DNA from: Thermoplasmatota archaeon
GTDB taxonomy: Archaea; Thermoplasmatota; Thermoplasmata; Halarchaeoplasmatales; Halarchaeoplasmataceae
Direction of reading: 5' to 3'
DNA: 64,000 nucleotides
NCBI GenBank assembly: GCA_036626005.1
Contig: JAZKSP010000001.1
Span: 1,344-65,343, forward strand
Shown here: piece by piece, positions 2,838-58,662 of the stretch
How positions within the stretch are numbered: the stretch's first letter is position 1
How the letters are laid out: the number at the start of each line of letters is the position of its first letter
The notes under the pieces: model-generated
Seen by the model: only the letters and a program-made list of their open reading frames with translations
The model's database searches: none
Told to the model about the DNA's origin: nothing
Made by a program: the position numbers and the translations under genes

Positions 2838-3890
2838 CTAAGGCAGTCTCTTGACACCCTCACTGATCAGTTCTATCAGATTCCTAACGTCTTTCCAGTC
2901 CGCACATTCTACCGTAGAGTGAGAATACTTGACCGGTACACCTATAGAAAGTGTCAGGCAGCCTGATTCCTGTAGGGCCATCCCGTCGGTCGTACCGCCG
3001 GTTACGCCGTATTGATACGGTATTCCAGCTTCCTCAGCTACCTCCTTGAAATGGTCGACCATCTTCGGAGAAGAGATAGCTCTAGTATCGACCATCCTCA
3101 ACACCGGACCTTCGCCGAACTTTATCGGTTTGTAAAATTCTTCCACCCCGGGAGCGTCGGAAGTAGTGTAGGTATCTAATGCGATGACATACTCTGGATC
3201 TCTGGTGTTAGCGACGACTTTTGCGCCTCTCAAACCTATCTCTTCCTGAACGCTCCATATCGAGGAAAGGTCGACCTCTAATTCCCTATCCTTCAATTTT
3301 TTAAGGACCTCAAGAAGAGCAAAACTTCCTATCCTGTTGTCGAGGCCTCTACCTGAAACGACTTGACCTTCTAATCTCCTTAGTTTTTTGTCGAAGGTTA
3401 TTGGATCTGGAACGTCTATACCCATCTCTTTCACTTCTTCAGCGGAGTCTGCGCCGATGTCGACATGAGTTTTTGTCCACGGAGTCACCTCGTCCTTGTC
3501 GTCTTCTTCAGTAGTCAGATGTGGTGGTCGATGTCCGATAACCCCGTTCACAGGACCTTCTTCGGTGTGTATCTTGACGTGCCTACCGGTCAATAGAGGA
3601 TCTAGAACTCCACCGATCTTTTTTATCCGGAGATATCCATCATCTTCGATGTTAGAGACCACCATCCCGATCTCATCCATGTGAGCGACCAAAGCTACTT
3701 CTGGTCCTTCATCTTCCTTCTCATAGATGAGGTTACCTATGTTGTCTTCCTCTATACTATCAGTATCTTCGACTTCCACATAGTCTGCAATAAGCCCTCT
3801 GATCTTATCTCTAACCGGTCCTTCGTATCCCGCAACTCCGGGAGCCTTCAAAACTTGCTCAAATATATCTAATCCTTCCAGTTTTTCCAT
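2838..3890 (-). CDS. M42-family metallo-aminopeptidase (TET/FrvX-like)
   Basis: 350-aa ORF resembling TET/FrvX/CelM aminopeptidases, including conserved HMDEIG and metal-ligand D/E/H motifs. Confidence 0.75.
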   Translation of the reverse strand: MEKLEGLDIFEQVLKAPGVAGYEGPVRDKIRGLIADYVEVEDTDSIEEDNIGNLIYEKEDEGPEVALVAHMDEIGMVVSNIEDDGYLRIKKIGGVLDPLLTGRHVKIHTEEGPVNGVIGHRPPHLTTEEDDKDEVTPWTKTHVDIGADSAEEVKEMGIDVPDPITFDKKLRRLEGQVVSGRGLDNRIGSFALLEVLKKLKDRELEVDLSSIWSVQEEIGLRGAKVVANTRDPEYVIALDTYTTSDAPGVEEFYKPIKFGEGPVLRMVDTRAISSPKMVDHFKEVAEEAGIPYQYGVTGGTTDGMALQESGCLTLSIGVPVKYSHSTVECADWKDVRNLIELISEGVKRLP

Positions 3891-3919
3891 CTTTTCACCT
3901 CAAAAATATATTATAGTAA

Positions 3920-3947
3920 GAGGGGGACCCCTCTATTTCGAGTGGAA
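3920..3947. repeat. 28-bp element gagggggacccctctatttcgagtggaa; a perfect reverse-complement copy lies at 7139..7166
   Basis: Compared directly between the two loci. It contains an internal GAGGGG-ga-CCCCTC hairpin. It sits between the gcvT 3' end and the M42 peptidase start. Confidence 0.9.
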
Positions 3948-3964
3948 CACAGAACCGAGAGTAT

Positions 3965-5065
3965 CTAAACGAACGGAGGGTTCTTCACAACCGCATCTCT
4001 CTTCTCGTCCCTGATTTCCACCTTTATCTCGGTTCCCTCTTCCTGATAACCGGGTTCGATATAGGCAAGACCGATACCCTTTTTCAGGGTGGGAGAACGA
4101 GTACCGCTGGTTACTTCACCTATCTCTTCATCATCTGCAAATATCTTGTAGCCGTGCCTCGGGATTCCTTTATCTTCCATCTCGAAACCTTTCAGTAACT
4201 GATGATCTTCATCCTTCATTTCTTCGAGCTTTTCTTTTCCCACGAAATCATGGTCCCATTCGATGGCGTCTTCAGCCCAGCCAGTCTCTAGAGTAGTTCT
4301 AGATTCATCGAAATCTTGACCAGCTAAAAGGAAGCCGAACTCTATCCTCAAAGTATCTCTAGCACCGAGTCCGCATTTTGTTGGAGAATCTTCGAGATCT
4401 TGAAGCTGTTCCCAAAGTTCTACTGCAGCATCGTTTGGAAGAGCGATTTCGAAACCGTCTTCCCCGGTATATCCACTTCGTTGGACGATAGGTTTATCGG
4501 CGACAGGCCAGTCTTCATCGAATTTTTCCATTATATCATCGTTTATCTCGATCTGTTTAGATTGGAAAAAGTCTATCTCTGACAGGTCCGCATCGGTCAG
4601 TTCCTGCAGTGTTTCTTCCGCATCGGGGCCTTGGATCGCGAACATCGAAGTTTCTTCTGTAACGTCTGTTAGATACTCCTCTCCACCCTGTTTCGCGAAC
4701 CAATCATAGATCCTTTCATTGTTTCCCACGTTCGGAACTATGTAACAGGAATCCTCCGACAGTTTAGCTACGATAGTATCGTCAAGGATACCTCCCTCTT
4801 CGTTCAACATATGGGCGTATTTCAATTGACCAACTTCCGAATCCGTGATATCCATCGTACAATGTTTGCTAATGAACTCTATCGCTCCGTCGCCCTCGAG
4901 ATATATTTGGCCCATGTGTGACACGTCGAAGATACCGACTTCTTCTCGCACCGACTTATGCTCTTTGTTTATACTAGAGAACTTCAGAGGCATCTCATAG
5001 CCTCCAAAATTGGTCATCCTTGCATCGGCTTCTACGTGATTTTCATGAAGGGCAGTTTCTTTCAT
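3965..5065 (-). CDS. gcvT: Glycine cleavage system T protein (aminomethyltransferase)
   Basis: 366-aa ORF with the GcvT N-terminal signature ...YEMPLKFSSINKEHKSVREEVGIFDVSHMGQI... and a C-terminal folate-binding region. Confidence 0.85.
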   Translation of the reverse strand: MKETALHENHVEADARMTNFGGYEMPLKFSSINKEHKSVREEVGIFDVSHMGQIYLEGDGAIEFISKHCTMDITDSEVGQLKYAHMLNEEGGILDDTIVAKLSEDSCYIVPNVGNNERIYDWFAKQGGEEYLTDVTEETSMFAIQGPDAEETLQELTDADLSEIDFFQSKQIEINDDIMEKFDEDWPVADKPIVQRSGYTGEDGFEIALPNDAAVELWEQLQDLEDSPTKCGLGARDTLRIEFGFLLAGQDFDESRTTLETGWAEDAIEWDHDFVGKEKLEEMKDEDHQLLKGFEMEDKGIPRHGYKIFADDEEIGEVTSGTRSPTLKKGIGLAYIEPGYQEEGTEIKVEIRDEKRDAVVKNPPFV

Positions 5066-5259
5066 ATTTCCTGTATCTATTCACTCCTTAAAAGTTTTTA
5101 TCTTCATGCAAACTCTTCGAAATAAGATTATTATTAAACATGTATGATATGAATGAAAAAGATTTAAATAGTTAAATTGTTAGAATTTATAAGAATTAGA
5201 AGTTCGTTTACAAAAAGTTTTTACTTGATATATGTTATAACATATGAGACGGGGAGAAA

Positions 5260-6645
5260 ATGAAAGAATATGATTTGATTTCAATAGGAACCGGCTCAGC
5301 TATGAGCATTGTAACTCAGGCTTTAAACGAAGACCCAAATTTGGATATTGCTGTGATCGAAAACGAGAAACCTGGTGGTATATGCCTCACTAGAGGATGT
5401 ATTCCATCCAAATTACTTCTTTACCCCGCAGAAGTCGTCAATAGTATTAAGGAGGCAGATAGATTCGGTGTCGATGTAGATATCAACTCTATCGATTTTC
5501 AGCAAATAATGGAGAGAATGAGAGACCATGTTAATACACAAAGTGAAAGTATAGGTACTAATTTGAGAAACAGTACAGATCTTGACTTTTACGAAGATGA
5601 TGCTCAATTCGTAGACGATTATACCCTTAAAGTCGGGAATAAAAAAATCAAGGGGAAAAAAATAATACTAGGGACTGGATCACGACCCTCAATACCTCCT
5701 ATAGATAATCTTGAAGAAACTGGTTACTTAACTAGTAAAACATTTTTAGATATCAAGGAGCTTCCTGAAAGTATAGTGATCATAGGTGGAGGGTACATCG
5801 CTGCAGAGTATGGATACTTTCTAGCAATGATGGGATCCGATGTCACCATAATAGGTAGGAATACACAGTTCGTACCATCTGAAGAGCAGGAGATATCTGA
5901 AGTGTTGGAAAAGAAACTTTCTAGATACATGGATATCTATACAGGTTATGAAGTGAAAAAGACAAAGGAAAAGTCTGGTAACAAGTGGGTCCTCGCTAAA
6001 TCGGATAAAGATAAGATAGAAGTTAAAGGAGAAGAATTACTGATCGCGACAGGTAGACGATCAAACTCAGATATATTGAAACCGGAAAAAAGCGGGATCA
6101 AAACAGATGATAAAGGTTGGATAGAAGTCGATCAACATCTAAAAACATCTAAGGAAAATATATGGGCCTTAGGAGATGCGACGGGAGAACACATGTTCAA
6201 ACATGTTGCAAATTACGAAGCAAAAATAGTATATGAAAACGCGATCGAAGGAAGAGAGAGTACAGTGGATTATCATGCTGTGCCACATGCCGTATTCACC
6301 TATCCACAGGTGGCTTCAGTTGGGATGAAAGAAAAAGAGGCATCCAAGAAACACGATATACTGATAGGTTACTATCCTTTCGAAGACACGGCTAAAGGTT
6401 CTGCCATGGAGATAGAAGATTATCTCGTTAAAGTGATTGTAGATAGTGAAGATTACAGGATACTCGGAGCTCATATAGTAGGTCCCGAGGCTTCTGTCCT
6501 TCTGCAGGAGATAATAAACTTGATGTACACTAAAAACCAGACATTTTTACCGATATATAACGGGATGCACATACATCCTTCCTTGTCCGAAGTTGTTGAA
6601 AGAGCGTTCTCGAATCTTCACTCTCACGAACACGAACACCATTGA
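5260..6645 (+). CDS. lpdA: Dihydrolipoyl dehydrogenase (class I pyridine nucleotide-disulfide oxidoreductase)
   Basis: GxGxxG FAD site. Redox-active disulfide GGICLTRGCIPSK. C-terminal dimerisation domain with HPSLSE (His-Glu dyad). Divergently adjacent to gcvT. Confidence 0.75.
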   Translation: MKEYDLISIGTGSAMSIVTQALNEDPNLDIAVIENEKPGGICLTRGCIPSKLLLYPAEVVNSIKEADRFGVDVDINSIDFQQIMERMRDHVNTQSESIGTNLRNSTDLDFYEDDAQFVDDYTLKVGNKKIKGKKIILGTGSRPSIPPIDNLEETGYLTSKTFLDIKELPESIVIIGGGYIAAEYGYFLAMMGSDVTIIGRNTQFVPSEEQEISEVLEKKLSRYMDIYTGYEVKKTKEKSGNKWVLAKSDKDKIEVKGEELLIATGRRSNSDILKPEKSGIKTDDKGWIEVDQHLKTSKENIWALGDATGEHMFKHVANYEAKIVYENAIEGRESTVDYHAVPHAVFTYPQVASVGMKEKEASKKHDILIGYYPFEDTAKGSAMEIEDYLVKVIVDSEDYRILGAHIVGPEASVLLQEIINLMYTKNQTFLPIYNGMHIHPSLSEVVERAFSNLHSHEHEHH

Positions 6646-6700
6646 TTTTATTTCCTTTAAAAGAAAAGATTTAAGTATGTTTCATTAAATCACTCAAGCG

Positions 6701-7084
6701 ATGTCCTGGAAAACATCGTACCGTCAAAACGAATTCGTGATCTCGATAATCGCTATAATGGTAGGAACTGTTATGCTGTTGATCGGTTTATTTGGTACTC
6801 TTCTCAGCGATTATTCACCAGAAGGTTTCACGGTCATGACCAATGCCATTGGAAACTGGAAATGGTGGTTATTGGTAGTAGGGATAATCCTGATTTTCAT
6901 TTTTGCGATAATGATATATCTTCGGATAAAAAGATTGAGGGAATTCAAAGATCTTTTTGAGACGGAGAGTAAGAGTAAATTCAGGAAAAATGTAGTTGAG
7001 ATCGAAGAGCTGGCTATAAAGCTAGGTCCTGAATTCGAAGATAAAGTGGTCGAGAAAGAAGAGGAATTCAATCTTAAAAGATAA
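6701..7084 (+). CDS. Hypothetical small membrane protein (2 TM helices plus charged C-terminal helix)
   Basis: Two hydrophobic stretches followed by a K/E-rich tail. No recognisable family. Confidence 0.35.
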   Translation: MSWKTSYRQNEFVISIIAIMVGTVMLLIGLFGTLLSDYSPEGFTVMTNAIGNWKWWLLVVGIILIFIFAIMIYLRIKRLREFKDLFETESKSKFRKNVVEIEELAIKLGPEFEDKVVEKEEEFNLKR

Positions 7085-7138
7085 TCTATACCGGCTTTTA
7101 TCATCTAGTTAATACCCTCTACTCTCTCTATTCCTCAT

Positions 7139-7166
7139 TTCCACTCGAAATAGAGGGGTCCCCCTC
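7139..7166. repeat. Inverted copy of the 28-bp element at 3920..3947, ending 12 nt upstream of tRNA-Gly
   Basis: ttccactcgaaatagaggggtccccctc is the exact reverse complement of 3920..3947. Confidence 0.9.
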
Positions 7167-7177
7167 CTTGGCGATAT

Positions 7178-7251
7178 GCGGTTGTGGTCTAGACTGGTTA
7201 GGACCCAAGCTTCCCAAGCTTGTAGCCCGGGTTCAAATCCCGGCAGCCGCA
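7178..7251 (+). tRNA. tRNA-Gly (anticodon CCC)
   Basis: Cloverleaf folded by hand. Acceptor GCGGTTG/CAGCCGC with discriminator A. D-stem GTCT/GGAC. Anticodon stem CAAGC/GCTTG around loop TTCCCAA. T-arm CCGGG-TTCAAAT-CCCGG. CCA is not encoded. Confidence 0.85.
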
Positions 7252-7262
7252 TATTTCATTTT

Positions 7263-15172: not shown

Positions 15173-16459
15173 ATGGCAGAAGAAGGATATAATCCGTTTA
15201 AGATGGCCCAACAACAGTTCGACAGGATAGCCGAACAATTAGATCTTGATGAGGCGTTGAGAGATCTGCTAAGAGAACCGTTGAGAGAGTATCACTTCAA
15301 CATACCCGTTAAGATGGATGATGGTTCTACAGAGGTTTTCAAGGGATTTAGAGTTCAGCACAATGATGCACTAGGTCCGTGCAAGGGCGGAATAAGATTC
15401 CATCCTGAAGAAACCGGAGATACAGTTAGGGCCCTCGCGATGTGGATGACTTGGAAGACCGCCGTTGCAGACATTCCACTTGGAGGCGGTAAGGGAGGAG
15501 TAATATGCGATCCACATGATCTATCAGATAGGGAACAGGAAAGATTGTGTAGAGAATATATCAAAAAGATAAATAAGAACATAGGACCGCTTCAAGATGT
15601 TCCCGCTCCCGACGTTATGACCAGCCCTCAACACATGCTCTGGATGATGGACGAGTATGAAAACATAGAAGGTGGGAAATATCCAGGAGTTATCACCGGT
15701 AAACCACAAGATATGGGGGGCTCTAAGGGAAGGACGGAAGCTACTGGCTACGGTTTAGTTTACCAGTTGAGAGAACTATTGAAAGAACTCGATAGAGATA
15801 TCGAGAATACTACTGCATCTATTCAAGGCTTTGGAAATGTCGCTCAGTACGCGGCCGAACTCTTCATAGAGTACGGCGGAACAGTCGTCTCAGTATCGTG
15901 CTGGGATCAGGATGATGAAAAAGCTTACAGTTATTACAAGGAAGACGGTATCGATCTTGAAGAATTAAGAGGGATAACTGATCGCTTCGGTTCTATAGAT
16001 AAAGATAAGGCGGAAGAGAAGGGCTATCAATGCCTAGGAGGCGATGAATGGTTAACCCATGAAGTAGACGTTTTGATCCCCGCGGCTCTAGAAAACGCCA
16101 TATCTGAAGACAACGTGCATGATATACCGAACTCTGTTGACATAATAATCTCTGGAGCTAACGGACCTATCACCCCAGAAGCTGACGACGAACTCGAAGA
16201 TAGAGACATCATCGTCGTACCGGACTTCCTGGCTAACGCCGGTGGTGTGATGTGCAGTTATTTCGAGCAGGTTCAGAGTAATCAAAACTACTACTGGTCT
16301 AAGGATGAAGTGTTAGGGAAATTGGACAACGGTATGACAGATGCTTTCTATGAAGTATGGGACCTCGCTCAGAGGAAGGATGTCAGATTGAGAGACGCAG
16401 CTTATATGATCGCTATACAGAGAGTAGCGGAAGCCTGCGAAGCCAGAGGCTGGGTATAA
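15173..16459 (+). CDS. gdhA: Glutamate dehydrogenase (archaeal ~430-aa type)
   Basis: Glu/Leu/Phe/Val dehydrogenase motifs: KGGIRFHP, catalytic GGGKGG, and an NAD(P)-binding GFGNVAQY. Confidence 0.9.
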   Translation: MAEEGYNPFKMAQQQFDRIAEQLDLDEALRDLLREPLREYHFNIPVKMDDGSTEVFKGFRVQHNDALGPCKGGIRFHPEETGDTVRALAMWMTWKTAVADIPLGGGKGGVICDPHDLSDREQERLCREYIKKINKNIGPLQDVPAPDVMTSPQHMLWMMDEYENIEGGKYPGVITGKPQDMGGSKGRTEATGYGLVYQLRELLKELDRDIENTTASIQGFGNVAQYAAELFIEYGGTVVSVSCWDQDDEKAYSYYKEDGIDLEELRGITDRFGSIDKDKAEEKGYQCLGGDEWLTHEVDVLIPAALENAISEDNVHDIPNSVDIIISGANGPITPEADDELEDRDIIVVPDFLANAGGVMCSYFEQVQSNQNYYWSKDEVLGKLDNGMTDAFYEVWDLAQRKDVRLRDAAYMIAIQRVAEACEARGWV

Positions 16460-16481: not shown

Positions 16482-19481
16482 ATGCCCAACAAGATCGAAA
16501 AGATAAGAGAAGCGATCGAAGAAGCGACAGGTAAGTCACCTGAGTTACCGTCTTCAAAAACCCGTTCCAAGGACTTGGAGGCATCATTTATCGATGATGT
16601 CCTCCTCTTTTGCAATTCTTTTGATTATTTTTTAATACAGGAAGAAGGCCGTCTTGATGCTTTGATCGAGGATAAATTTTCCTCTGGAGGACTTAGACAA
16701 CCACCAAAAATTCAGCACGCCGAAACAAAGAAAGAATGCTCAGAAATCCTCAAAAAGTTGGACATAGATATGCTGATAATCTTCGGTACTCCTTTAGAGA
16801 ATGATATTGAGAAATTTTCGCAGTGGCTAGAAACGAGCTGTGAGGAATTACCAGTGGTCTGGATAAGTAATAACGATTCTGACTCTAATACTTCCCTCGA
16901 TGAGAAAATAGAATTCAAGGAAGTTTTCACCTGGAATGGTGACGGAAAAATCATCTTGACGATAATCCAATATATCGAAGACAACATCCGATTCAGGGAA
17001 GATCGTTTCGCAAAAAGAAAACGCCCTATCCTCCTCATCGAAGATTCAAAACAGTACTACTCCACCTATTTGACTCATATTTATGAAGAGATATGGTCTC
17101 ATCTTGATGCTATCCTTCATGAGGATTTGACGAAGGAAAAGAAAATCCAGCGCTATCTGAGAAGGCCTTTCGTTGTTCTTGCCGAGGATATCGATGAAGG
17201 AAGAGAGATTTACACTAAAATTGAGGAGGATCTTTTGTGCGTTATCACGGACAATAGATTGGAAACGGAAGACGGAAATCAGGAAAACGCTGGACTCCAG
17301 TTCGCTGAAGAGATAAAGCGTGACAATCCCGATCTTCCTGTACTTCTCCAATCTTCAGCATCTGTACCAAGTGAAAAAACAGATGAAAAGATTGAGATCG
17401 TGAATAAAAACGACCCCGCTCTCAATCAGGCGATCATTGATTTTATCGATGATAATTTATCCCCTGTAAGTTTAAAAGTTAGATTGGGAGAGGGATTCGA
17501 GGAGATAGAAGTAAAGACTATCGATGAGCTTCAAGAGGTTATCAAAGAGTTAGATGACCAAAAGATCAAAGATCTGATTGAGGACCCCGAGTTTGTCAAA
17601 TGGATGAGAGTTCTCACCGAGTTCGAATTGGCAGATAGCGTGGAAGTTATCAAAGACAACCATATCTCCCCCAGATCATATAGAGAAAAATTGTTAGATC
17701 TTTTAGAAGAATATAGATATGCCGATTATAGTACAGCGGTCACTGATTTTAAAAGAGAGAGGACTGAACCAAAGAACAAAATAAATCGAATAGGTGAAGG
17801 TGCGTTAGGAGGAAAGGCTAGAGGTTTGGCTTTCATATCAAAATTGTTTTCGAAATACCTTTCTGAAGACCTTTTTGAAGATCTAAAGATCACAGTTCCA
17901 AGAACCATCGTTTTGACCTCTGATGTTTTCGACAAATTTTTTGAGGAAAACGAGATAATAGAGTCTCGACTTTTTGAACTCTCGGATGAAAGGATCTCCT
18001 CGAAGTTCATAGATGGGAGTCTTCCCGCGACGATCATTGGCGATCTTCGTTCATTCATTAGAGAAACTCGGAATCCGTTGATCGTTCGGTCATCCGGGTT
18101 GTTAGAAGATTCCCTCACTAGACCATTTGCTGGCGTTTATTCTTCTATGTTCTTACCGAATGAATCGTGGGAGACTAGCCTGAGGTTCAAAGAGGTTTGT
18201 GAAGCGATAAAGCACGTTTACGCATCTACCTTTTTCGAAGAAGCAAGAAATTATCTCAAATCCACGCCTAAGAACATAGGCGATGAAAAGATGTCGGTGA
18301 TTATCCAGGAAGTTGTCGGTGGAAAAAACGGTAAATACTTCTATCCCACGATTTCGGGCGTGGCTAAATCATATAATTATTACACCTCTAAAGGTTGTAA
18401 ACCTGAAGACGGCATTGTCTATCTAGCTCTTGGATTGGGAAAAGAGATAGTGGAAGGTGGCTCTTCTTATTTTTTCTGTCCAGAATGTCCTAAATCTCCC
18501 ATGTTCGGGACTCCTAAAGATTTCGTTCCTCACTCTCAGACCGAATTCTATGCCCTGAATCTTGAGTCTATATACAGAGTAGTAGGAAAAAACGAAGAAT
18601 CTTCTCTAGAAAAGTTAGACATAACTCAGGCGGAGAAACACGGCGTACTCGACAAGATCGCCTCTACGTATTCACCGCGGGACGACCGGCTCTATCCAGG
18701 CATACATAGAGAGGGCTCTAGAGTAATAGATTTTGCACCCATAATAAACTACGATTCAATTCCATTGGCTCAGGCGATAAAAGTACTCATAGATGTATCT
18801 GAGATCGCTTTGGGTTATCCGGTAGAGATCGAGTTCGCCGTTGAATTTGAAGAGGAAGATGATAAACCTGCGAAGTTAGTGGTCCTTCAGATACGTAATA
18901 TGGTCTCAAAAACAGTCTTTCAAGATTTGGATATAGAAGAATGCGACGATGAGAAGTTGGTCTGTCAGAGTGAAAAAGTGTTGGGACACGGGATGCTCAC
19001 AGAGATAGAGGATGTGGTATACATTAAGCCCGGAGCCTTTGACATGAGTAATAGCGAGGATGCCGCTGAAGAGATCAAAAAGATCAATGCCAAACTCAGC
19101 GACGAGGGCAGAGAGTACCTCCTGGTGGGTCCCGGAAGATGGGGAACAACCGATCCCTGGATGGGCATCCCGGTTAGATGGGGAGATATAGCAGGATCGA
19201 AAGTGATCGTAGAGACCCCTACAGAGGGTAGGACCATCGAACCGTCCCAGGGGTCTCATTTCTTCCACGATATGCTGTCCTCTGAAACATGCTATATGGT
19301 AGTTGACGATGAGAACAAAGTTGATTGGGATTGGTTAGAGGAGAAAGAATATCAAAAGGAATTGGAATACGTTAGACATGTCCAACTTGACGAACCGCTG
19401 AAAGTTCAGGTCGATGGTAAAGAGGGAAGAGGGATCATAGAGAAAAAATTACAAAACAGATCTGAAACGAACAATATTTAA
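16482..19481 (+). CDS. Multidomain protein with REC-like receiver domain(s) and a PEP-synthase/PPDK N-terminal ATP-grasp (PEP/pyruvate-binding, PPDK_N) domain; no phosphohistidine or PEP-utilising C-domain
   Basis: aa ~180-310 resemble a CheY-like receiver (PILLIEDS...ITDNRLETEDG...LPVLLQSS). aa ~430-999 match the PpsA N-domain (RIGEGALGGKARGL, IVRSSGLLEDSLTRPFAGVYSSMFLPN, VIIQEVVGG, KLVVLQIRNM). Confidence 0.6.
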   Translation: MPNKIEKIREAIEEATGKSPELPSSKTRSKDLEASFIDDVLLFCNSFDYFLIQEEGRLDALIEDKFSSGGLRQPPKIQHAETKKECSEILKKLDIDMLIIFGTPLENDIEKFSQWLETSCEELPVVWISNNDSDSNTSLDEKIEFKEVFTWNGDGKIILTIIQYIEDNIRFREDRFAKRKRPILLIEDSKQYYSTYLTHIYEEIWSHLDAILHEDLTKEKKIQRYLRRPFVVLAEDIDEGREIYTKIEEDLLCVITDNRLETEDGNQENAGLQFAEEIKRDNPDLPVLLQSSASVPSEKTDEKIEIVNKNDPALNQAIIDFIDDNLSPVSLKVRLGEGFEEIEVKTIDELQEVIKELDDQKIKDLIEDPEFVKWMRVLTEFELADSVEVIKDNHISPRSYREKLLDLLEEYRYADYSTAVTDFKRERTEPKNKINRIGEGALGGKARGLAFISKLFSKYLSEDLFEDLKITVPRTIVLTSDVFDKFFEENEIIESRLFELSDERISSKFIDGSLPATIIGDLRSFIRETRNPLIVRSSGLLEDSLTRPFAGVYSSMFLPNESWETSLRFKEVCEAIKHVYASTFFEEARNYLKSTPKNIGDEKMSVIIQEVVGGKNGKYFYPTISGVAKSYNYYTSKGCKPEDGIVYLALGLGKEIVEGGSSYFFCPECPKSPMFGTPKDFVPHSQTEFYALNLESIYRVVGKNEESSLEKLDITQAEKHGVLDKIASTYSPRDDRLYPGIHREGSRVIDFAPIINYDSIPLAQAIKVLIDVSEIALGYPVEIEFAVEFEEEDDKPAKLVVLQIRNMVSKTVFQDLDIEECDDEKLVCQSEKVLGHGMLTEIEDVVYIKPGAFDMSNSEDAAEEIKKINAKLSDEGREYLLVGPGRWGTTDPWMGIPVRWGDIAGSKVIVETPTEGRTIEPSQGSHFFHDMLSSETCYMVVDDENKVDWDWLEEKEYQKELEYVRHVQLDEPLKVQVDGKEGRGIIEKKLQNRSETNNI

Positions 19482-19528
19482 TAGCGGTTAGTCTAATTAT
19501 AGATTTAATCGGGCAGAGGTGACGAAGT

Positions 19529-22500
19529 ATGGACGATGAAAAAATTGCGAAGACCTTCTCGAAAGGAGCAAATGAAGAGGATCTTGCATCACCCGAGATC
19601 GAAGAGATCGATGAATTGGAAGAACGTATCAAAGAGTTGAATTGCTTTTATAAGATCTCCGAAATTGTAAATGACGCCTCTCTTTCACTAGATGAAGCTT
19701 TACAAAAAATCGTCGAAGTCATCCCTCCGTCCTGGCAGTATCCAGATATTGCTTCGGCCAGAATAAAAATCAGAGAAAAAGAATATACTACAGAGGATTT
19801 TGAAAAAACGGAATGGAAGCAGAGGAGTGATATAACAGTAAAGAGCGAAAAGATCGGCGAGATAAACGTTGTTTACCACGAAGAGAGACCTGAGAAGGAT
19901 GATGGTCCCTTTTTGAAGGAGGAGAGACGCTTGCTCGATACTTTAGCTGATCTTTTAGCTAATTTCGTTCAAGAGGAAACCGGAGGTCGGTTATCTAGGA
20001 AGGAACTGGTATCCGAATCTCCTGAAGAGGAGAAAAAGGATTGGGAGGTCATAATCGATCTTCTTATGCAGACGGACCCTAGGACTTTACTTAGGATAAC
20101 AAGGAAGATGGTGTATTATCTTTATAGAAATGAGAACGAGAGAGTGCAATCTCTCCTTGATGATGTGTGTCCCGCTGACGGGAGCGAAGAAGCTCCAAAA
20201 TGGTGCGGTATAAATATGCCGAACCCAAAACAGGATATTGACTCTTTAAGAGAGGTCCAGAGGGAAGTATTTCAGATCGCTAAGGAAGATCTAGACCCCG
20301 AACGGATATCAGATCTCTTCCACAGATGGTTGAAAGAGGATAAGGCCCGCCCATTGTTGATAGCATCACAAAGAAGAGGCACCCCCCTGGTAGAGATCAA
20401 GGAAGAATTGAATAGGTTTTTCAGAAAACCGGAGTCTGAGAAGGTACTTTCTGACGAGGATAAAATGAGCATACGGACCGAGCTAATCCAGCGATTTTTT
20501 ACTGATAGATTGGATTTTGTGAATGTCGCTAAGAAATATATCAAGGTGGACGATTACGAGCCCTTGATTCAGAAGATAGTGGGGCCGGCTCGTGGTGCAG
20601 GTAAATTAGGAGGCAAAGCTTCAGGAGCTTACCTTGCTCATAAGATCATACAGGAAGAATTCGATGATGAGTTCACAAAAGAAATAGGATTCCCCAAAAG
20701 TTGGTACATAACCTCAGATACACTTATGGACCTGATCCATTATAATGATCTTGACGAACTTATCCATGTCAAATATTTAGATCCGGATGAAATCAGGCAT
20801 GAAGAGCCGTTTTTGGAACAATTGATGAAAAATGCAATGTTCCCCTCAGAGATAGTGGAAGGGCTAAAGAAGATTCTAAGGGATTTAGAGGGAAAACCGA
20901 TTATTGTCAGATCTTCTAGTCTCCTAGAGGATAACTTCGGCGCGGCTTTTTCCGGCAAATACAAGAGCCTTTTCCTTCCCAATAAAGGGAGTGAAGAGGA
21001 AAGGTTGGAGGAATTAATGAACGCTATCGCCGAGGTCTATGCATCTACTTTCTCAGCTGATCCTATAGAATATCGAAGGGAACGTGGTCTTTTGGACTTC
21101 AGTGAGGAAATGGGTATCCTGATCCAGGAGGTTGTCGGTACAGAGATTGGAAACTACTATCTTCCTACTTATGGAGGTGTGGCATTCAGTAAGAACGAGT
21201 TCAGATGGTCCCCTAGAATTGGGAGAGACGATGGAGTCATCAGGATAGTCCCCGGGCTCGCTACCAGAGCTGTAGATAGGATCGGAGATGATTATCCCAT
21301 ACTCGCTTCTCCTAACAGACCTAATTTACGGGTAAATTCGACTGTAGAAGAACGGGTTAGATACTCTCCGAGATATATGGACGTGATCAACCTAGAAACA
21401 GAACAGATGGAAACCGTTGAAGTAGATAACTTCCTTCAGGAGCACGCCAATGAGTTTCCCAATCTAGAAAAAATGGTTTCCTTGTATGAAAACGGGAATC
21501 TAAAGACACCTTCAGGAGTGATACTCAGTCCTGAAAAGGAGGATATGGTTGTTACCTTCTCTAAACTTTTCGATAAAACTGATTTCCTCCCCAAGATGAA
21601 TCAGATATTGAGAAAACTTGAAGAAAAAATAGGTTATCCAGTAGACGTCGAATTTGCTTTTGACGGTGAAAAACTTTATATTGTCCAGTGTAGACCTCAG
21701 AGTCAGGCTTTGGATAGAGAGAGAGTGAAGATACCAAGGGACATAAAAGAAAATAGAAAGTTATTCTCTGCGAATAAATACGTTACTACAGGCAATTTAG
21801 AAAACCTTGAGTATATTGTTTATGTGGTCCCCGGGGAGTACTCGAAACTTGAGAGCAGAGAAAAAATGCAGCAAACAGCTCAGATTGTAGGTGAACTAAA
21901 CAAAGAGTTACCAGAGCAAAAATTCATCCTCATGGGCCCCGGCAGATGGGGAAGTCGAGGAGACATCAAACTTGGAGTTCCGGTGAAATATAGAGAGATA
22001 AACAATACCGCTTTGCTAGTAGAAGTCGCGAAGGAAAGAGGTGGTTATGAACCCGAACTATCTTTTGGTACACACTTTTTCCAAGATCTGGTTGAAGCAG
22101 ATATCAAATATTTACCTCTGTATCCTGAGGAGGAAGAGAATATCTGGAAAGAAGAGATGTTTTTCAGGTCGGAAAACAAATTAACGGACTTTCTGCCCAG
22201 ATATGAAGATTTCGAAGACGTGATCAGAGTGGTCGACGTGAGTGACATAAGTAAAGGCGGAACTCTCACGGTGACTATGGACGGCGAGGCAAATCAGGCC
22301 TTAGCCTATTTGGAACCTTCGGATCATTGGGAATGGAGGATGAAAAAAGTCAAACAGATGGCTAGGGAATTAGACCCGGAAGTGTATGATGTAGAAGCGC
22401 TTTACGTGGTGGGTAGTACGAAAGAAGCGACTGCAGGTCCTGAGAGCGATATAGATATAATAGTCCATTTTGATGGTGATGAAGAGCAAAAGGAGAAGCT

Positions 22501-22696
22501 TGATAATTGGTTCCAGAGATGGGATCAGAGGCTAATCCAGGAGAACGAGCAGCGGATCGGAAAAAGGCTCGATAGTATACTAGATGTTCATTACATCACG
22601 GCCGAAGATATAGAAGAGGAGAGTTCTTGGGCATCTCATATAACTTCAAGATATAAATCAGCTAGAAAAATACCTGTAGGCCGTGACCAAGAGTGA
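19529..22696 (+). CDS. Multidomain paralog: GAF-like N-terminal sensor, PPDK_N ATP-grasp domain and a C-terminal minimal nucleotidyltransferase (Pol-beta-like)
   Basis: N-terminus LNCFYKISEI...ERRLLDTLADLLANFV looks GAF-like. PPDK_N motifs GPARGAGKLGGKASG, IIVRSSSLLEDNFGAAFSGKYKSLFLPN, LIQEVVGTE. C-terminus ALYVVGSTKEATAGPESDIDIIVHFDGD is a GS..(D/E)xD minimal-NTase motif. Confidence 0.6.
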   Translation: MDDEKIAKTFSKGANEEDLASPEIEEIDELEERIKELNCFYKISEIVNDASLSLDEALQKIVEVIPPSWQYPDIASARIKIREKEYTTEDFEKTEWKQRSDITVKSEKIGEINVVYHEERPEKDDGPFLKEERRLLDTLADLLANFVQEETGGRLSRKELVSESPEEEKKDWEVIIDLLMQTDPRTLLRITRKMVYYLYRNENERVQSLLDDVCPADGSEEAPKWCGINMPNPKQDIDSLREVQREVFQIAKEDLDPERISDLFHRWLKEDKARPLLIASQRRGTPLVEIKEELNRFFRKPESEKVLSDEDKMSIRTELIQRFFTDRLDFVNVAKKYIKVDDYEPLIQKIVGPARGAGKLGGKASGAYLAHKIIQEEFDDEFTKEIGFPKSWYITSDTLMDLIHYNDLDELIHVKYLDPDEIRHEEPFLEQLMKNAMFPSEIVEGLKKILRDLEGKPIIVRSSSLLEDNFGAAFSGKYKSLFLPNKGSEEERLEELMNAIAEVYASTFSADPIEYRRERGLLDFSEEMGILIQEVVGTEIGNYYLPTYGGVAFSKNEFRWSPRIGRDDGVIRIVPGLATRAVDRIGDDYPILASPNRPNLRVNSTVEERVRYSPRYMDVINLETEQMETVEVDNFLQEHANEFPNLEKMVSLYENGNLKTPSGVILSPEKEDMVVTFSKLFDKTDFLPKMNQILRKLEEKIGYPVDVEFAFDGEKLYIVQCRPQSQALDRERVKIPRDIKENRKLFSANKYVTTGNLENLEYIVYVVPGEYSKLESREKMQQTAQIVGELNKELPEQKFILMGPGRWGSRGDIKLGVPVKYREINNTALLVEVAKERGGYEPELSFGTHFFQDLVEADIKYLPLYPEEEENIWKEEMFFRSENKLTDFLPRYEDFEDVIRVVDVSDISKGGTLTVTMDGEANQALAYLEPSDHWEWRMKKVKQMARELDPEVYDVEALYVVGSTKEATAGPESDIDIIVHFDGDEEQKEKLDNWFQRWDQRLIQENEQRIGKRLDSILDVHYITAEDIEEESSWASHITSRYKSARKIPVGRDQE

Positions 22697-23775: not shown

Positions 23776-25140
<1,365 letters not shown>

Positions 25141-36063: not shown

Positions 36064-36822
36064 ATGGCTGATGATGATTTAAGTTACGAAGATGTAATCG
36101 ATGTATGGGAGAGAGAGAAGGAAGCGAAGTTGCCCTGCGCTTTACCTAATAATTTTTATGAAAGATTGAGAAAATACATTCGAGACTTAGAAACCAAAGT
36201 AGAAGATATCGACGTCCCTCCCAAAGATAAACGGGAAAGGAGGGTTCAAAAGCAGTACGAGAGAGTACAGAAGATAGCTGAACTTTTTTTCAAAGAGAGA
36301 CAAAAAAAGATAGTGTTAGCCGCATATCACAAATCGATGGGAAAGACGGTTAGTGCTGAAAATTTGGTCGAAGCGGAACTAGAACTTCTAGAAGAAATAT
36401 CTGGAAGTTTAGAGGAATTGAAGAACCAAATATTTTTAAGAGAGTATAAAAGAAAACCCGAGAAGAAAGAATCGAAAGAGAAGGAACGAACGGAAGAAAA
36501 GACCGTAGAGAGCGAACCCTCCTCACCTGAAGAAAAAATCGAAGATGTCACTCGGGATCAGACTCAAACAAAGGAGGACCTCGGACCATCTGAATCTCCG
36601 GTTGAAGAAGCTGCGAATGAAAGTGAAGTCTCTAGAGACGATCGCTTATCACCTGATTTAGAAGGTCAAGATGAGATATTGATCCATATAACTGAAGATA
36701 TTCCTTCCTTCGTTGATATGAACGTAACTTATGATCTAGAAAAAGAAGATGTTCTCACATTAAGAGAGGATTTAGCAGAAGTTTTGATAGAAAGAGGGAA
36801 AGCGAGGAAGATAAAGCTTTAA
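36064..36822 (+). CDS. Acidic helical protein, possibly GINS (Gins51/Sld5-like A-domain) replication factor
   Basis: The N-terminus (LSYEDVIDVWEREKEAKLPCALPNNFYERLRKYIRDLE...RVQKIAELFFKERQKKIVLAA) follows the archaeal Gins51 helical-domain pattern. Adjacent to RPA-like genes. Assignment rests on pattern memory only. Confidence 0.3.
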   Translation: MADDDLSYEDVIDVWEREKEAKLPCALPNNFYERLRKYIRDLETKVEDIDVPPKDKRERRVQKQYERVQKIAELFFKERQKKIVLAAYHKSMGKTVSAENLVEAELELLEEISGSLEELKNQIFLREYKRKPEKKESKEKERTEEKTVESEPSSPEEKIEDVTRDQTQTKEDLGPSESPVEEAANESEVSRDDRLSPDLEGQDEILIHITEDIPSFVDMNVTYDLEKEDVLTLREDLAEVLIERGKARKIKL

Positions 36823-38493: not shown

Positions 38494-39612
38494 TCAAGCT
38501 ACTGTTTCTATTTCTTCAGTTGAAATTTCTTCGCCAAATATCTGTTTTGATTCGACACCTGTGATGACCACCATAATCTTTAGAGTTTCTTCTTGACTTG
38601 GATCAACAGATGCACCCCAGATTATCCTTGCGTTCTTGCCGATCTTTCTTTCGACAGTTTTTGCCGCTTTTTCTGCTTCAGATACCGTCATATCACTTCC
38701 TCCTACGACATTTACCAGGGCTGCGTTCGCATTGCTGATATCGACTTCCAGCAGAGGTGAATCTATCGCTTCTTTGATAGCCTCTTCCGCTCGATTTTCG
38801 GAATCATCTTCACCCATGCCTATCATCGCAACTCCGGCCCCTTCCATCACCGTCTTTAGATCGTTAAAATCAAGGTTTACTAAACCAGGTTTAGTTACCA
38901 ATTCTGTGATACCTGTGATAGATCTAGAGAGCACTTCATCAGCGACTTTAAAGGCCTTATTGAGTGATAGACGAGGACAGAGGTCCAAGAGCTTGTCGTT
39001 AGGAATAGTTATGACGGTATCGGCTACGCTTTTGAGTCTTTCCAGACCCCATTCCGCATTTTCCATCCGGGATTTTCCTTCAGCCTCGAAGGGGGTGGTA
39101 CATATAGCTACGGTGAGCGCCCCTTTGTTTTTGGCGATTTCAGCTACGACAGGAGCCCCTCCTGTTCCAGTTCCACCACCGAGACCGCAGGTAACAAAGA
39201 CCATATCAGTCCCTTCTAGTATATCTTCTAACTTTTCTCTTGCTTCTTCGGTAGCTTCTTGGCCGACCTGCGGTAGAGCTCCTGCTCCTAGTCCCCTGGT
39301 CTTTCGCTTACCGAGCAAGACTTTTCTTTGAGAGTGAACCGTCAACAAGTGCTGAGCGTCGGTATTGGCCGCGATCAACTTCGCACCCTTTATACCTTCT
39401 TCTGATATCCTTTCGACGGTATTGCAACCTGCACCGCCGATTCCTACAATCTTGATATCCGTTTTAAGGTCTGAAAGCACCTCTCTCAGTTCTTCATCCT
39501 CGGTCGAAAGGTCTTGTTTACCTTCTTCTATGGCTTTTGATTCCTCTGAATTTTGATTTTCGGCTTGAGATAGAGCCTCATCAACAATTGAATCCATAAA
39601 TGCACACTCCAT
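38494..39612 (-). CDS. ftsZ: Cell division GTPase FtsZ
   Basis: Tubulin signature GGGTGTG (GLGGGTGTGGAPVVA) and N-terminal VGIGGAGCN. Confidence 0.9.
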   Translation of the reverse strand: MECAFMDSIVDEALSQAENQNSEESKAIEEGKQDLSTEDEELREVLSDLKTDIKIVGIGGAGCNTVERISEEGIKGAKLIAANTDAQHLLTVHSQRKVLLGKRKTRGLGAGALPQVGQEATEEAREKLEDILEGTDMVFVTCGLGGGTGTGGAPVVAEIAKNKGALTVAICTTPFEAEGKSRMENAEWGLERLKSVADTVITIPNDKLLDLCPRLSLNKAFKVADEVLSRSITGITELVTKPGLVNLDFNDLKTVMEGAGVAMIGMGEDDSENRAEEAIKEAIDSPLLEVDISNANAALVNVVGGSDMTVSEAEKAAKTVERKIGKNARIIWGASVDPSQEETLKIMVVITGVESKQIFGEEISTEEIETVA

Positions 39613-58252: not shown

Positions 58253-58370
58253 AGAGCGATCAACCCGATAAACTATCTTTCATAAACCCTAACTACCGAA
58301 TCGCGGATAAATGCCCCTTTTGAAGGTTATAAAAGGAGAGAGGCCGAAAGGTGATAAACTCCTGTCTCGT

Positions 58371-58619: not shown

Positions 58620-58662
58620 ATCATTTACCTCCTTTTTCTCAAATATTTTATTCTACTTATTA

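What the first reader, a model, noticed from the sequence alone, without database searches (positions are those of the whole stretch)
3920..7166. Perfect 28-bp inverted repeat with an internal hairpin at matching positions upstream of the M42 peptidase gene and tRNA-Gly
gagggggacccctctatttcgagtggaa at 3920..3947 is the exact reverse complement of 7139..7166. Relative to the downstream gene the orientation is the same at both loci. At locus 1 the minus-strand reading TTCCACTCGAAATAGAGGGGTCCCCCTC ends ~30 nt before the M42 peptidase ATG. At locus 2 the identical plus-strand reading ends 12 nt before tRNA-Gly +1, which places CGAAATA near -28. The element contains a 6-bp GAGGGG/CCCCTC stem. Twenty-eight identical bases in AT-rich intergenic DNA are unlikely by chance. 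Candidate roles are a shared BRE/TATA-like promoter module, a regulator-binding site, or the ends of a small mobile or recombination element bracketing the gcvT-lpd segment.
Basis: seen in the sequence. Interest (0 to 1): 0.6.

Follow-up and report, generated by a model that had tools for sequence, protein, structure and literature searches.

The report
Paired archaeal replication-origin recognition boxes
The two 28-base repeats are origin recognition boxes, the DNA sites where the archaeal replication initiator Orc1/Cdc6 binds; here they sit 3.2 kb apart around three metabolic genes, with no initiator gene nearby.

Summary
There is a perfect 28-bp inverted repeat at 3920-3947 and 7139-7166, and chance does not explain it.

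It is not a promoter module, an RNA hairpin or a transposon end. The sequence TTCCAC-NN-GAAA-NNNA-GGGG(TCCCCC) is an archaeal Origin Recognition Box (ORB), the Orc1/Cdc6 binding site.
- It matches published ORBs, 20/22 to "Ca. Methanomethylophilus alvus" ORB2.
- A degenerate version found more than 120 metagenome contigs. Outside this clade, 26 of 26 hits with enough flanking DNA have an orc1/cdc6 gene within 2.5 kb (median 275 bp).

Both copies are conserved at the same two positions in 34 related soda-lake and hypersaline Thermoplasmata species (1.6 bits per position against 0.25 in the flanks). The two copies within a genome evolve in concert.

Their mutual orientation, G-strings outward, is that of canonical oriC1-type ORB pairs. 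Three things are unusual:
- They lie 3.2 kb apart.
- They enclose gcvT, lpd and a DUF3198 gene.
- No orc1/cdc6 gene was found in the 64-kb window or within ±10 kb in relatives.

DUF3198 also flanks ORBs at a cdc6-linked origin in another lineage, so the locus looks origin-derived. Whether it still fires as an origin (about 0.5) or serves as a non-origin Orc1 site is unresolved.

The parts
3920..3947 (-). ORB1: origin recognition box read on the minus strand as TTCCACTCGAAATAGAGGGGTCCCCCTC. Its dyad/mini-ORB part is 3947-3936, its G-string 3931-3928 and its C-run 3926-3922. It lies between the gcvT stop and the M42 Shine-Dalgarno sequence.
   Evidence: sequence. (match to published ORB consensus). 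(conserved in 36 orthologous loci at 1.59 bits per position). (the same motif lies next to orc1/cdc6 in other archaea).
7139..7166 (+). ORB2: an identical origin recognition box on the plus strand. Its dyad/mini-ORB part is 7139-7150, its G-string 7155-7158 and its C-run 7160-7164. It lies between the DUF3198 stop and tRNA-Gly(CCC).
   Evidence: (conserved in 34 orthologous loci at 1.65 bits per position). (DUF3198-ORB adjacency also occurs at a cdc6-linked origin in another lineage).
3965..5065 (-). gcvT (aminomethyltransferase), enclosed by the ORB pair. Its 3' end abuts the TTCCAC end of ORB1.
5066..5259 (.). gcvT/lpd divergent promoter region. It is 76% A+T, and 5111-5240 is 80-85% A+T, the longest A+T-rich stretch in the window. 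It is the only candidate unwinding element between the ORBs. This is inferred, not shown.
   Evidence: In relatives the region is only 75-135 bp and carries two conserved promoter-like boxes.
5260..6645 (+). lpd (dihydrolipoyl dehydrogenase), enclosed by the ORB pair.
6701..7084 (+). DUF3198 small membrane protein. Its 3' end faces ORB2. A homologue (34% identity) flanks the outlying ORB of a cdc6-linked origin in another archaeal lineage.
2838..3890 (-). M42 aminopeptidase gene, immediately outside ORB1 on the G-string side. It is the ancestral operon partner of gcvT.
7178..7251 (+). tRNA-Gly(CCC), immediately outside ORB2 on the G-string side.

Best explanation
Each arm is an origin recognition box (ORB), the DNA site bound by one monomer of the archaeal replication initiator Orc1/Cdc6.

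From published structures and footprints, not tested here:
- The winged-helix domain reads the TTCCAC..GAAA dyad part.
- The AAA+ domain reads the GGGG 'G-string', so binding has a fixed polarity.
- ATP-bound Orc1 on two inverted ORBs recruits MCM helicase to the DNA between them.

Shown here:
- The sequence is an ORB.
- The same motif sits next to orc1/cdc6 almost everywhere else it occurs.
- Both copies are under strong purifying selection at fixed positions in a whole clade.
- The two copies have the canonical mutual orientation (G-strings outward, TTCCAC ends inward).

Inferred: the pair marks, or descends from, the oriC1-type chromosomal origin of these haloalkaliphilic Thermoplasmata. 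The architecture is atypical. The ORBs are 3.2 kb apart. They enclose the divergently transcribed gcvT and lpd-DUF3198 units with an A+T-rich promoter region in the middle. The initiator gene is encoded elsewhere.

My confidence that these are Orc1/Cdc6-type ORBs is about 0.9. My confidence that the locus is an active origin is about 0.5.
For: 1. Sequence match. The element aligns with ORBs tabulated in PMC4153887: 20/22 to 'Ca. M. alvus' ORB2 GTTCCACTGGAAACAG-AGGGGT. It has the same 3-nt spacer as the Methanomassiliicoccales consensus, and 17/23 to the pan-archaeal consensus CTTCCAGTGGAAACGAAAGGGGT.

2. Association with orc1/cdc6. Outside the clade, 26/26 hits with at least 2.5 kb on both sides have orc1/cdc6 within 2.5 kb, median 275 bp. 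Overall 89/109 do, and the other 20 all lie near contig ends.

3. Thermoplasmata origins next to cdc6 (L098, L206-208) have ORB(-), about 150 bp (79% A+T in L098), then ORB(+). Their ORB sequences are close to the clade's variants, for example TTCCAAACGAAATAAAGGGGTCT.

4. Conservation. Both copies are present at the same two junctions in 34 species whose M42 is 61-93% identical to the window's. There are exactly two per locus in 590 kb. Conservation is 1.6 bits per position against about 0.25 in flanks. TTCCAC, GAAA and GGGG are invariant or nearly so.

5. Orientation. The '- ... +' order with G-strings outward matches H. hispanica oriC1 (text of PMC3936714) and L098/L206.

6. Origin ancestry. 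DUF3198, whose 3' end faces ORB2, is an origin-flanking gene in another lineage: DUF3198, ORB, HflX-like GTPase, ORBs, then cdc6 in 18 loci that extend through cdc6, and 6 more that end before it.

7. A weak third-codon T-over-A skew to the right of ORB2 fits an origin lying to the left (p = 0.016).
Against: - No orc1/cdc6 homologue was found in the 64-kb window or within ±10 kb of M42 in 35 related loci (tblastn). Adjacency to the initiator gene is the rule elsewhere.
- The ORBs are 3,191 bp apart and separated by coding DNA, against about 100-200 bp of A+T-rich DNA in characterised origins.
- The inner flanks of both ORBs are gene 3' ends, not an unwinding element.
- The only A+T-rich tract lies 1.1-1.9 kb away. 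In relatives it is just a 75-135 bp promoter region.
- Both ORBs lie where read-through transcription from gcvT and lpd-DUF3198 would cross them.
- No replication genes were identified nearby.
- No binding or replication data exist.
- I could not find the clade's own orc1/cdc6 gene.
Confidence: 0.8

Rival explanations
1. The elements are genuine ORBs but not an origin. They are Orc1/Cdc6 binding sites retained for another purpose. One option is titration of the initiator, like the ORB-rich oriC2D region of Haloarcula hispanica or datA in E. coli. Another is Orc1-dependent control of the genes just outside them. Bound Orc1 would then act as a roadblock or repressor between gcvT and M42 and between lpd-DUF3198 and tRNA-Gly. 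That would couple their expression to the replication cycle.
For: - No cdc6 gene and no DUE next to the ORBs.
- Each ORB is wedged between a stop codon (1-50 nt upstream) and the next gene's Shine-Dalgarno sequence or tRNA 5' end (1-34 nt downstream), exactly where a roadblock would act.
- An ancestral gcvT-M42 operon junction was split by the ORB.
- Non-origin ORB clusters and isolated ORBs are documented (PMC3936714; PMC4153887).
Against: - Titration sites described so far are clusters of many ORBs next to cdc6, not two single sites.
- The canonical inverted orientation and the DUF3198 linkage point to origin ancestry.
- No precedent was found in the papers read for an Orc1-1-type initiator regulating a peptidase or tRNA gene.
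- In compact genomes any intergenic element ends up close to gene ends.
Confidence: 0.35
2. One reading: the element is a shared BRE/TATA-type promoter module driving M42 and tRNA-Gly, with CGAAATA as the TATA-like box near -28.
For: In the window itself the spacing to tRNA position 1 (11 nt) would put a start site at about -1. The element is upstream of both genes in all species.
Against: - The element ends only 1 nt before the tRNA in 6 species (range 1-34 nt). In L035 it overlaps the M42 Shine-Dalgarno sequence. A start about 26 nt after GAAATA would then fall inside the tRNA or after the ribosome-binding site.
- Promoter-like boxes of this clade look different: AAAACTTTTAAGG at gcvT and lpd, AAAAGTTATAG at tRNA-Cys.
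- The same motif elsewhere lies beside cdc6 at origins in either orientation, not at a fixed distance from genes.
Confidence: 0.03
3. An RNA-level element: a conserved hairpin in the 5' leader of M42 mRNA and pre-tRNA-Gly, or a 3' stabiliser or terminator of gcvT and DUF3198 transcripts.
For: The element is probably transcribed, because it lies between co-directional genes. The G4/C4-5 runs can pair. The C-run could alternatively pair with the Shine-Dalgarno sequence.
Against: - The stem is marginal (-3.6 kcal/mol, z = -0.48).
- Its register shifts between species, for example GGGG-TC-CCCC against GGGG-TCT-CCCC.
- The outer pairs are not kept: position 15 is G in 6 of 70 copies and position 27 is T in 25 of 70. 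Some orthologues (GGGGTCCCTCCC) do not form the stem at all.
- The most conserved part, TTCCAC..GAAA, is unpaired.
- No oligo-T follows at locus 2.
- Rfam gave nothing.
- The cdc6/origin association is unexplained by an RNA role.
Confidence: 0.03
4. Terminal inverted repeats of a mobile element, or recombination sites allowing inversion of the 3.2-kb gcvT-lpd segment.
For: A perfect inverted repeat brackets a discrete gene block. The two copies evolve in concert.
Against: - No target-site duplication.
- No transposase or recombinase in or near the block.
- Gene order and orientation are identical in all 34 species with both copies, and no inverted isomer was seen.
- gcvT-M42 are neighbours in distant relatives that lack the element.
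- There are only two copies per locus.
Confidence: 0.02

Closest known systems
ORB elements of oriC1-type archaeal replication origins (Sulfolobus oriC1 ORB1-3, Pyrococcus oriC, Aeropyrum ORBs, Haloarcula hispanica oriC1, Methanomassiliicoccales ORBs)
   Same: Same motif: a TTCCA(C/G)-TGGAAA-like dyad part, a short spacer, then an AGGGG(T) G-string. Same inverted pair with G-strings outward. Same within-genome similarity of copies. The same motif lies next to cdc6 in Thermoplasmata relatives.
   Different: The dyad is degenerate (T[CT]GAAA instead of TGGAAA). The pair is separated by 3.2 kb of genes instead of a 100-200 bp A+T-rich DUE. There is no orc1/cdc6 gene within 64 kb on one side or about 14 kb on the other. 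There are only two boxes and no mini-ORBs.
Metagenomic 'class A' origin architecture found here (for example L141): DUF3198, ORB(-), HflX-like GTPase gene, ORB(+), A+T-rich region, ORBs, cdc6
   Same: An inverted ORB pair in the same orientation brackets a whole gene (1.4 kb). A DUF3198 gene abuts the outlying ORB. The ORB consensus is the same.
   Different: There the pair is part of a larger origin with further ORBs and an adjacent cdc6. DUF3198 lies outside the bracket, facing the G-string end. Here it lies inside, facing the TTCCAC end.
Isolated ORBs reported in 'Ca. Methanomassiliicoccus intestinalis' (downstream of ftsZ; downstream of nifH/nifE)
   Same: Consensus ORBs away from orc1/cdc6 in a Thermoplasmata-related genome (PMC4153887).
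   Different: Those are single, unpaired boxes in one genome, with no reported conservation. Here a pair is conserved at fixed junctions across 34 species.
oriC2D, the ORB-rich non-origin region of Haloarcula hispanica (Cdc6E titration, datA-like)
   Same: ORBs that may act without being an origin (PMC3936714).
   Different: oriC2D has 11 ORBs in 722 bp directly downstream of its cdc6 gene. Here there are two single boxes far from any cdc6.

Membership tests
ORB (Orc1/Cdc6 origin recognition box) motif | Sequence: a TTCCA(C/G)nGGAAA-like dyad part, a 3-4 nt spacer and an AGGGG(T) G-string | tested here: met
   20/22 to 'Ca. M. alvus' ORB2. 17/23 to the pan-archaeal consensus. 23/28 to the cdc6-adjacent ORB of Thermoplasmata contig L098. 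The second G of the TGG in TGGAAA is replaced by C or T in this clade.
ORB (Orc1/Cdc6 origin recognition box) motif | The motif occurs at or next to orc1/cdc6-linked origins | tested here: met
   Met for the motif class: outside the clade, 26/26 metagenome hits with at least 2.5 kb on both sides have cdc6 within 2.5 kb, median 275 bp. Not met for this particular locus; see the oriC1-type origin rows.
ORB (Orc1/Cdc6 origin recognition box) motif | Specific binding by Orc1/Cdc6 | not testable with these tools
   Needs EMSA, footprinting or ChIP with the clade's initiator. That gene was not found.
Canonical oriC1-type archaeal replication origin | At least two ORBs in inverted orientation | tested here: met
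   ORB1 (-) and ORB2 (+), with G-strings outward as in H. hispanica oriC1 and L098/L206.
Canonical oriC1-type archaeal replication origin | The inverted ORBs flank a short (about 100-200 bp) A+T-rich duplex unwinding element | tested here: not met
   The spacing is 3,191 bp of mostly coding DNA. The only A+T-rich tract (5111-5240) is 1.1-1.9 kb from the boxes.
Canonical oriC1-type archaeal replication origin | Located directly adjacent to an orc1/cdc6 gene | tested here: not met
   tblastn with two Cdc6 queries found nothing in the window or in 35 clade loci. Pfam scans of the window ORFs tested found no Cdc6 domains.
Canonical oriC1-type archaeal replication origin | Replication initiates there (marker frequency, 2D gels, ARS activity) | not testable with these tools
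   There is only a weak third-codon T/A skew consistent with an origin to the left of 7.2 kb.
Archaeal BRE/TATA promoter | A fixed distance of about 24-27 bp from the TATA centre to a transcription start upstream of the gene product or ribosome-binding site | tested here: not met
   The element-to-tRNA spacing is 1-34 nt, and in L035 the element overlaps the Shine-Dalgarno sequence. A start downstream of GAAATA would then fall inside the tRNA or after the ribosome-binding site.
Transposon or MITE terminal inverted repeats, or invertible segment | Target-site duplication, a transposase or recombinase, variable location or orientation | tested here: not met
   None of these was present. Synteny and orientation are fixed in all 34 species with both copies.
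Structured RNA element or intrinsic terminator | A stem maintained by compensatory changes, or a match to a known family | tested here: not met
   No Rfam hit. The stem register shifts and the outer pairs are lost. z = -0.48.

The most novel reading that the evidence does not exclude
This clade of uncultured haloalkaliphilic Thermoplasmata may use a 'stretched' chromosomal origin. The two initiator-binding boxes would be 3.2 kb apart, detached from the initiator gene. They enclose two divergently transcribed glycine-cleavage units, whose promoter region would serve as the unwinding site. The boxes are kept identical by gene conversion. Orc1 bound at the boxes would at the same time gate read-through into the M42 peptidase and tRNA-Gly genes, linking replication licensing to expression of those genes.
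Probability: 0.3. Interest if true: 0.65.

Novelty: new variant of a known kind. Interest (0 to 1): 0.45.

Why it matters
ORBs are the archaeal counterpart of DnaA boxes, so recognising them places a candidate replication origin in an uncultured lineage known only from metagenome-assembled genomes.

If the locus is active, it breaks two rules used by origin-prediction tools and by current helicase-loading models. Those rules are that the ORBs flank a short A+T-rich element and that they sit next to orc1/cdc6. It would give a natural test of how far apart two Orc1-bound boxes can be and still cooperate, and of whether transcription inside an origin is tolerated or exploited.

If it is not active, it is a clade-wide conserved case of initiator-binding sites kept for another job. 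The concerted evolution of two 28-bp sites 3.2 kb apart is also unexplained.

In practice, the 19-specified-base pattern used here recovered cdc6-linked origins across many archaeal lineages in metagenomes.

Tried and rejected
- **Sub-motif searches in the window.** The palindrome alone and the 5' half alone gave only chance-level extra hits.
- **Rfam at gathering thresholds.** Only the two tRNAs were found.
- **Exact 21-mer scan of GTDB representative genomes.** No match, so the source species is not a representative and genome-wide copy number could not be read off.
- **Exact look-up of the window's M42 protein.** Not on record.
- **T-box-like or tRNA-pairing idea.** I looked by eye for complementarity between the element and tRNA-Gly. 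Only a 6-nt match to a self-complementary stretch turned up, with no consistent covariation. I dropped the idea once the cdc6 association appeared.
- **Promoter reading.** Rejected on spacing.
- **Hairpin reading.** Rejected on lack of conservation and an unexceptional energy.
- **Transposon or inversion reading.** Rejected on synteny.
- **GC skew.** It is dominated by gene orientation and is uninformative.
- **Hunt for the clade's own orc1/cdc6.**
  - tblastn of the window and clade loci found nothing.
  - A homologue search from a Thermoplasmata Cdc6 (L098) returned only proteins at least 78% identical to it, the named ones from Thermoplasmata/Thermoplasmatota MAGs.
  - One apparent contig-length match (15,686 bp) was a coincidence.
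  - In the representative-library search I screened hits for acidic proteins, because the window's proteome is acidic. The acidic candidates were Ala/Pro/Asp-rich sequences that look haloarchaeal, or a singleton on a 31% GC, plasmid-like contig without ORBs.
  - None of the ORB-adjacent Cdc6 proteins in the metagenome hits combines a strongly acidic pI with low GC.
- **Contig walking.** Not possible, because encoding-contig look-ups are restricted to window proteins and homologue-search hits.
- **The distant relative L040.** It has a cdc6 gene two genes upstream of gcvT-M42 but no ORB, probably a divergent paralogue.


Full report
**1. Observation**

Window 3920-3947 reads GAGGGGGACCCCTCTATTTCGAGTGGAA. 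It is the perfect reverse complement of 7139-7166, TTCCACTCGAAATAGAGGGGTCCCCCTC. Allowing 3 mismatches, these are the only two matches in 64 kb, and none of 100 dinucleotide-preserving shuffles gave any match.

- M42 aminopeptidase 2838-3890 (-)
- ORB1
- gcvT 3965-5065 (-)
- lpd 5260-6645 (+)
- a DUF3198 small membrane ORF 6701-7084 (+)
- ORB2
- tRNA-Gly(CCC) 7178-7251 (+)

The element ends 29 nt before the M42 ATG and 11 nt before the tRNA. It also begins 17 nt after the gcvT stop and 54 nt after the DUF3198 stop, in the same orientation relative to those upstream genes. Orientation alone therefore cannot say which neighbour it serves.

The 'hairpin' is a G-run followed by a C-run. The predicted fold is 5 bp with a 4-nt loop, -3.6 kcal/mol as DNA, z = -0.48 against shuffles.

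**2. Source organism and conservation**

The M42 protein has a ladder of relatives at 98% to 61% identity. They come from metagenome-assembled Thermoplasmata of soda lakes and hypersaline sediments ('Ca. Natronoplasma', 'Ca. Saliniplasma halalkaliphilum' and others). The window's proteins are acidic, with a median pI of 4.9.

Gene order was compared across 34 species-representative genome loci, plus metagenome contigs. It is always tRNA-Gly, element, DUF3198, lpd, gcvT, element, M42. In 590 kb of these loci there are exactly two copies per locus, always in the same relative orientation.

The element carries 1.59-1.65 bits per position, against 0.20-0.32 in the adjacent non-coding flanks. TTCCAC, GAAA and GGGG are invariant or nearly so. 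Positions 7-8, 13-15, 21, 23 and 27 vary. Loci whose M42 is under 50% identical lack the element.

**3. Why it is not a promoter, RNA element or mobile-element end**

- **Promoter.** The distance from the element to tRNA position 1 ranges from 1 to 34 nt, and is 1 nt in six species. The distance to the M42 start codon is 15-41 nt, and in L035 the Shine-Dalgarno sequence overlaps the element's last bases. Transcripts must therefore start within or upstream of the element, so CGAAATA cannot be a -28 TATA box. Promoter-like boxes of this clade look different (AAAACTTTTAAGG).
- **RNA hairpin.** The stem register shifts between species, and its outer pairs are not maintained. Rfam finds nothing.
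- **Mobile element.** There is no target duplication and no transposase, and no inverted isomer in any of the 34 species with both copies. Distant Thermoplasmata have gcvT directly followed by M42 with only a Shine-Dalgarno sequence between them (L040, L041, L048, L050, L051). The element was therefore inserted into an older operon junction.

**4. What it is**

I scanned metagenome contigs with the degenerate consensus TTCCACNNGAAANNNAGGGGNCNCCC.

In a large group of these loci the motif lies about 300 nt upstream of a gene beginning MQDTIFQQY...VLRPSYIPD.LPHRE. Pfam identifies that gene as Orc1/Cdc6.

The association is quantitative. Outside the soda-lake clade, 26 of 26 motif instances with at least 2.5 kb on both sides have orc1/cdc6 within 2.5 kb, at a median distance of 275 bp. 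Overall 89 of 109 do, and the remaining 20 all lie near contig ends.

The literature gives the same sequence as the archaeal Origin Recognition Box (PMC4153887 Table 2):
- pan-archaeal consensus CTTCCAGTGGAAACGAAAGGGGT
- Methanomassiliicoccales consensus GTTCCAGTGGAAATGG-AGGGGTA
- 'Ca. M. alvus' ORB2 GTTCCACTGGAAACAG-AGGGGT, which the window element matches at 20 of 22 positions

Thermoplasmata contigs with a canonical origin beside cdc6 carry ORBs such as TTCCACTTGAAATGAAGGGGCCTCCCTC and TTCCAAACGAAATAAAGGGGTCTCTC (L098, L206-208). These are very close to the clade's variants.

The two arms are therefore ORBs. The C-run is a variable extension, found in only 32 of 148 secondary ORBs collected without requiring it.

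**5. How ORBs work (from papers, not tested here)**

- Each ORB binds one Orc1 monomer with a defined polarity.
- The G-string is contacted by the AAA+ domain and the dyad part by the winged helix.
- Two inverted ORBs flank an A+T-rich unwinding element, and both are required.
- ATP-bound Orc1 recruits MCM hexamers to the DNA between them.

These points come from PMC3936714, PMC3089459 and PMC12141716.

In the H. hispanica oriC1 minimal origin, the G-strings are at the outer ends: CCCCCC on the left and GGGGGGGG on the right. This is my reading of the text. L098 and L206-208 show the same '- ... +' order around about 150 bp, 79% A+T in L098. The window pair has this same mutual orientation.

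**6. What is unusual here**

1. *Spacing.* The boxes are 3,191 bp apart and enclose three genes. Their inner flanks are gene 3' ends. The only A+T-rich tract is the gcvT/lpd divergent promoter region, 5066-5259 at 76% A+T with 5111-5240 at 80-85%. In relatives that region is merely 75-135 bp long with two conserved promoter-like boxes.
2. *No initiator gene nearby.* No orc1/cdc6 homologue was found in the window, which extends 57 kb to one side. None was found in the 35 clade loci, which extend about 14 kb to the other side. All 14 clade motif instances in the metagenome scan are at this locus and none is beside cdc6. In other Thermoplasmata the origin and cdc6 lie beside CDC48 and a PRC-barrel gene. 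The window has that pair at about 58.3-60.9 kb, but it is followed by ksgA, with no cdc6 or ORB.
3. *Concerted evolution.* The two copies within a genome are more alike than copies from different genomes: mean 2.7 differences against 4.1-4.6. Ten of 34 genomes have identical pairs, and no permutation in 10,000 reached the observed value. Lineage-specific odd states are shared by both copies, for example TTCCAAAC in L038, CACAGG in L032 and AAAAC in L022, L023 and L025. The ORB pairs of L098 and L206 are not homogenised in this way. Gene conversion, or joint selection by the cognate initiator, could explain this. I cannot tell which.

**7. Evidence that the locus descends from an origin**

In a separate lineage ('class A' contigs, GC 0.5-0.6) the architecture is recurrent. 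It runs DUF3198, ORB(-), an HflX-like GTPase gene (1.4 kb), ORB(+), A+T-rich DNA, further ORBs, then cdc6. Eighteen loci show the full array through cdc6, and six more end before it.

Two features recur in the window:
- An inverted ORB pair brackets whole genes.
- A DUF3198 gene has its 3' end facing an ORB. The window protein is 34% identical to the class A protein, E = 2e-10.

A GTP-binding protein gene beside oriC1 is also noted for haloarchaea (PMC4010727). This makes an origin-derived ancestry more likely than two boxes arising de novo.

A weak third-codon T-over-A excess in plus-strand genes to the right of ORB2 (p = 0.016) fits an origin lying to the left. It is not specific to this locus.

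**8. Verdict**

The repeat is real and functional, and it is a pair of Orc1/Cdc6 origin recognition boxes (confidence about 0.9). It most likely marks an atypical, stretched oriC1-type origin or its functional remnant. Active origin firing here gets about 0.5.

The main rival accepts the ORB identity but makes the boxes non-origin Orc1 sites, acting in initiator titration or as roadblocks gating M42 and tRNA-Gly (about 0.35).

I could not locate the clade's initiator gene or survey whole genomes. Those two steps, together with metagenomic coverage profiling, are what would decide the question.

Noticed in passing
window 2838-5065; loci L040, L041, L048, L050, L051: gcvT is directly followed by the M42 aminopeptidase gene, with only a Shine-Dalgarno sequence between them, in distant Thermoplasmata that lack the ORB. 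This suggests an old gcvT-M42 operon and a functional link between this peptidase and glycine cleavage. SHMT and gcvH lie nearby in relatives (L001).
   Followed up: partly
window 3920-3947 and 7139-7166; the 34 clade loci with both copies (L001, L006-L038 and L044, less L007 and L034): The two ORB copies of a genome evolve in concert. Ten of 34 genomes have identical pairs, and lineage-specific odd bases are shared by both copies. The ORB pairs of canonical Thermoplasmata origins (L098, L206) are not homogenised. The mechanism (gene conversion or co-selection with the initiator) is unexplained.
   Followed up: partly
loci L013, L021, L036, L131, L137, L174; window 7178-7262: Several assembled contigs end within about 0.1-0.7 kb of the tRNA-side ORB. 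Three of them (L013, L021, L036) end 74-143 bp past the box, inside or just beyond tRNA-Gly(CCC). The tRNA-Gly to TPR-gene interval varies from about 0.1 to 3 kb among species. This suggests a variable region or integration hotspot next to the tRNA.
   Followed up: no
window 58300-60867; loci L098, L206-L210: In other Thermoplasmata the cdc6 gene and its ORB-DUE-ORB origin lie beside CDC48 and a PRC-barrel gene. The window keeps CDC48 (58663-60867) and a small PRC-like ORF (about 58360-58620), but ksgA follows instead of an origin and cdc6. The origin neighbourhood was rearranged in this clade.
   Followed up: partly
loci L086-L205 ('class A', for example L141 7937-11353): A recurrent origin architecture in an unnamed archaeal lineage from sediments: DUF3198, ORB, HflX-like GTPase, ORB, A+T-rich DNA, back-to-back ORBs, then cdc6. 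DUF3198 therefore behaves as an origin-flanking gene.
   Followed up: partly
window 36064-36822 and 38494-39612: A 252-aa ORF has a weak, sub-threshold match to GINS23 (E = 1.5e-5, 24.9 bits against a cut-off of 120). ftsZ lies about 1.7 kb away. No ORB-like motif was seen near either.
   Followed up: no
window 16482-22696 and 15173-16459 / 23806-25140: There are two adjacent large paralogous proteins with PPDK_N (PEP-utilising, ATP-binding) domains, one of which is fused to a nucleotidyltransferase domain. There are also two glutamate-dehydrogenase paralogues.
   Followed up: no
locus L211 (CAZOPW010000087.1, 5.2 kb, 31% GC): A singleton acidic 494-aa Cdc6-like protein lies on a short contig with no ORB-like motifs. 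The contig looks plasmid- or virus-like and is unrelated to the clade.
   Followed up: partly
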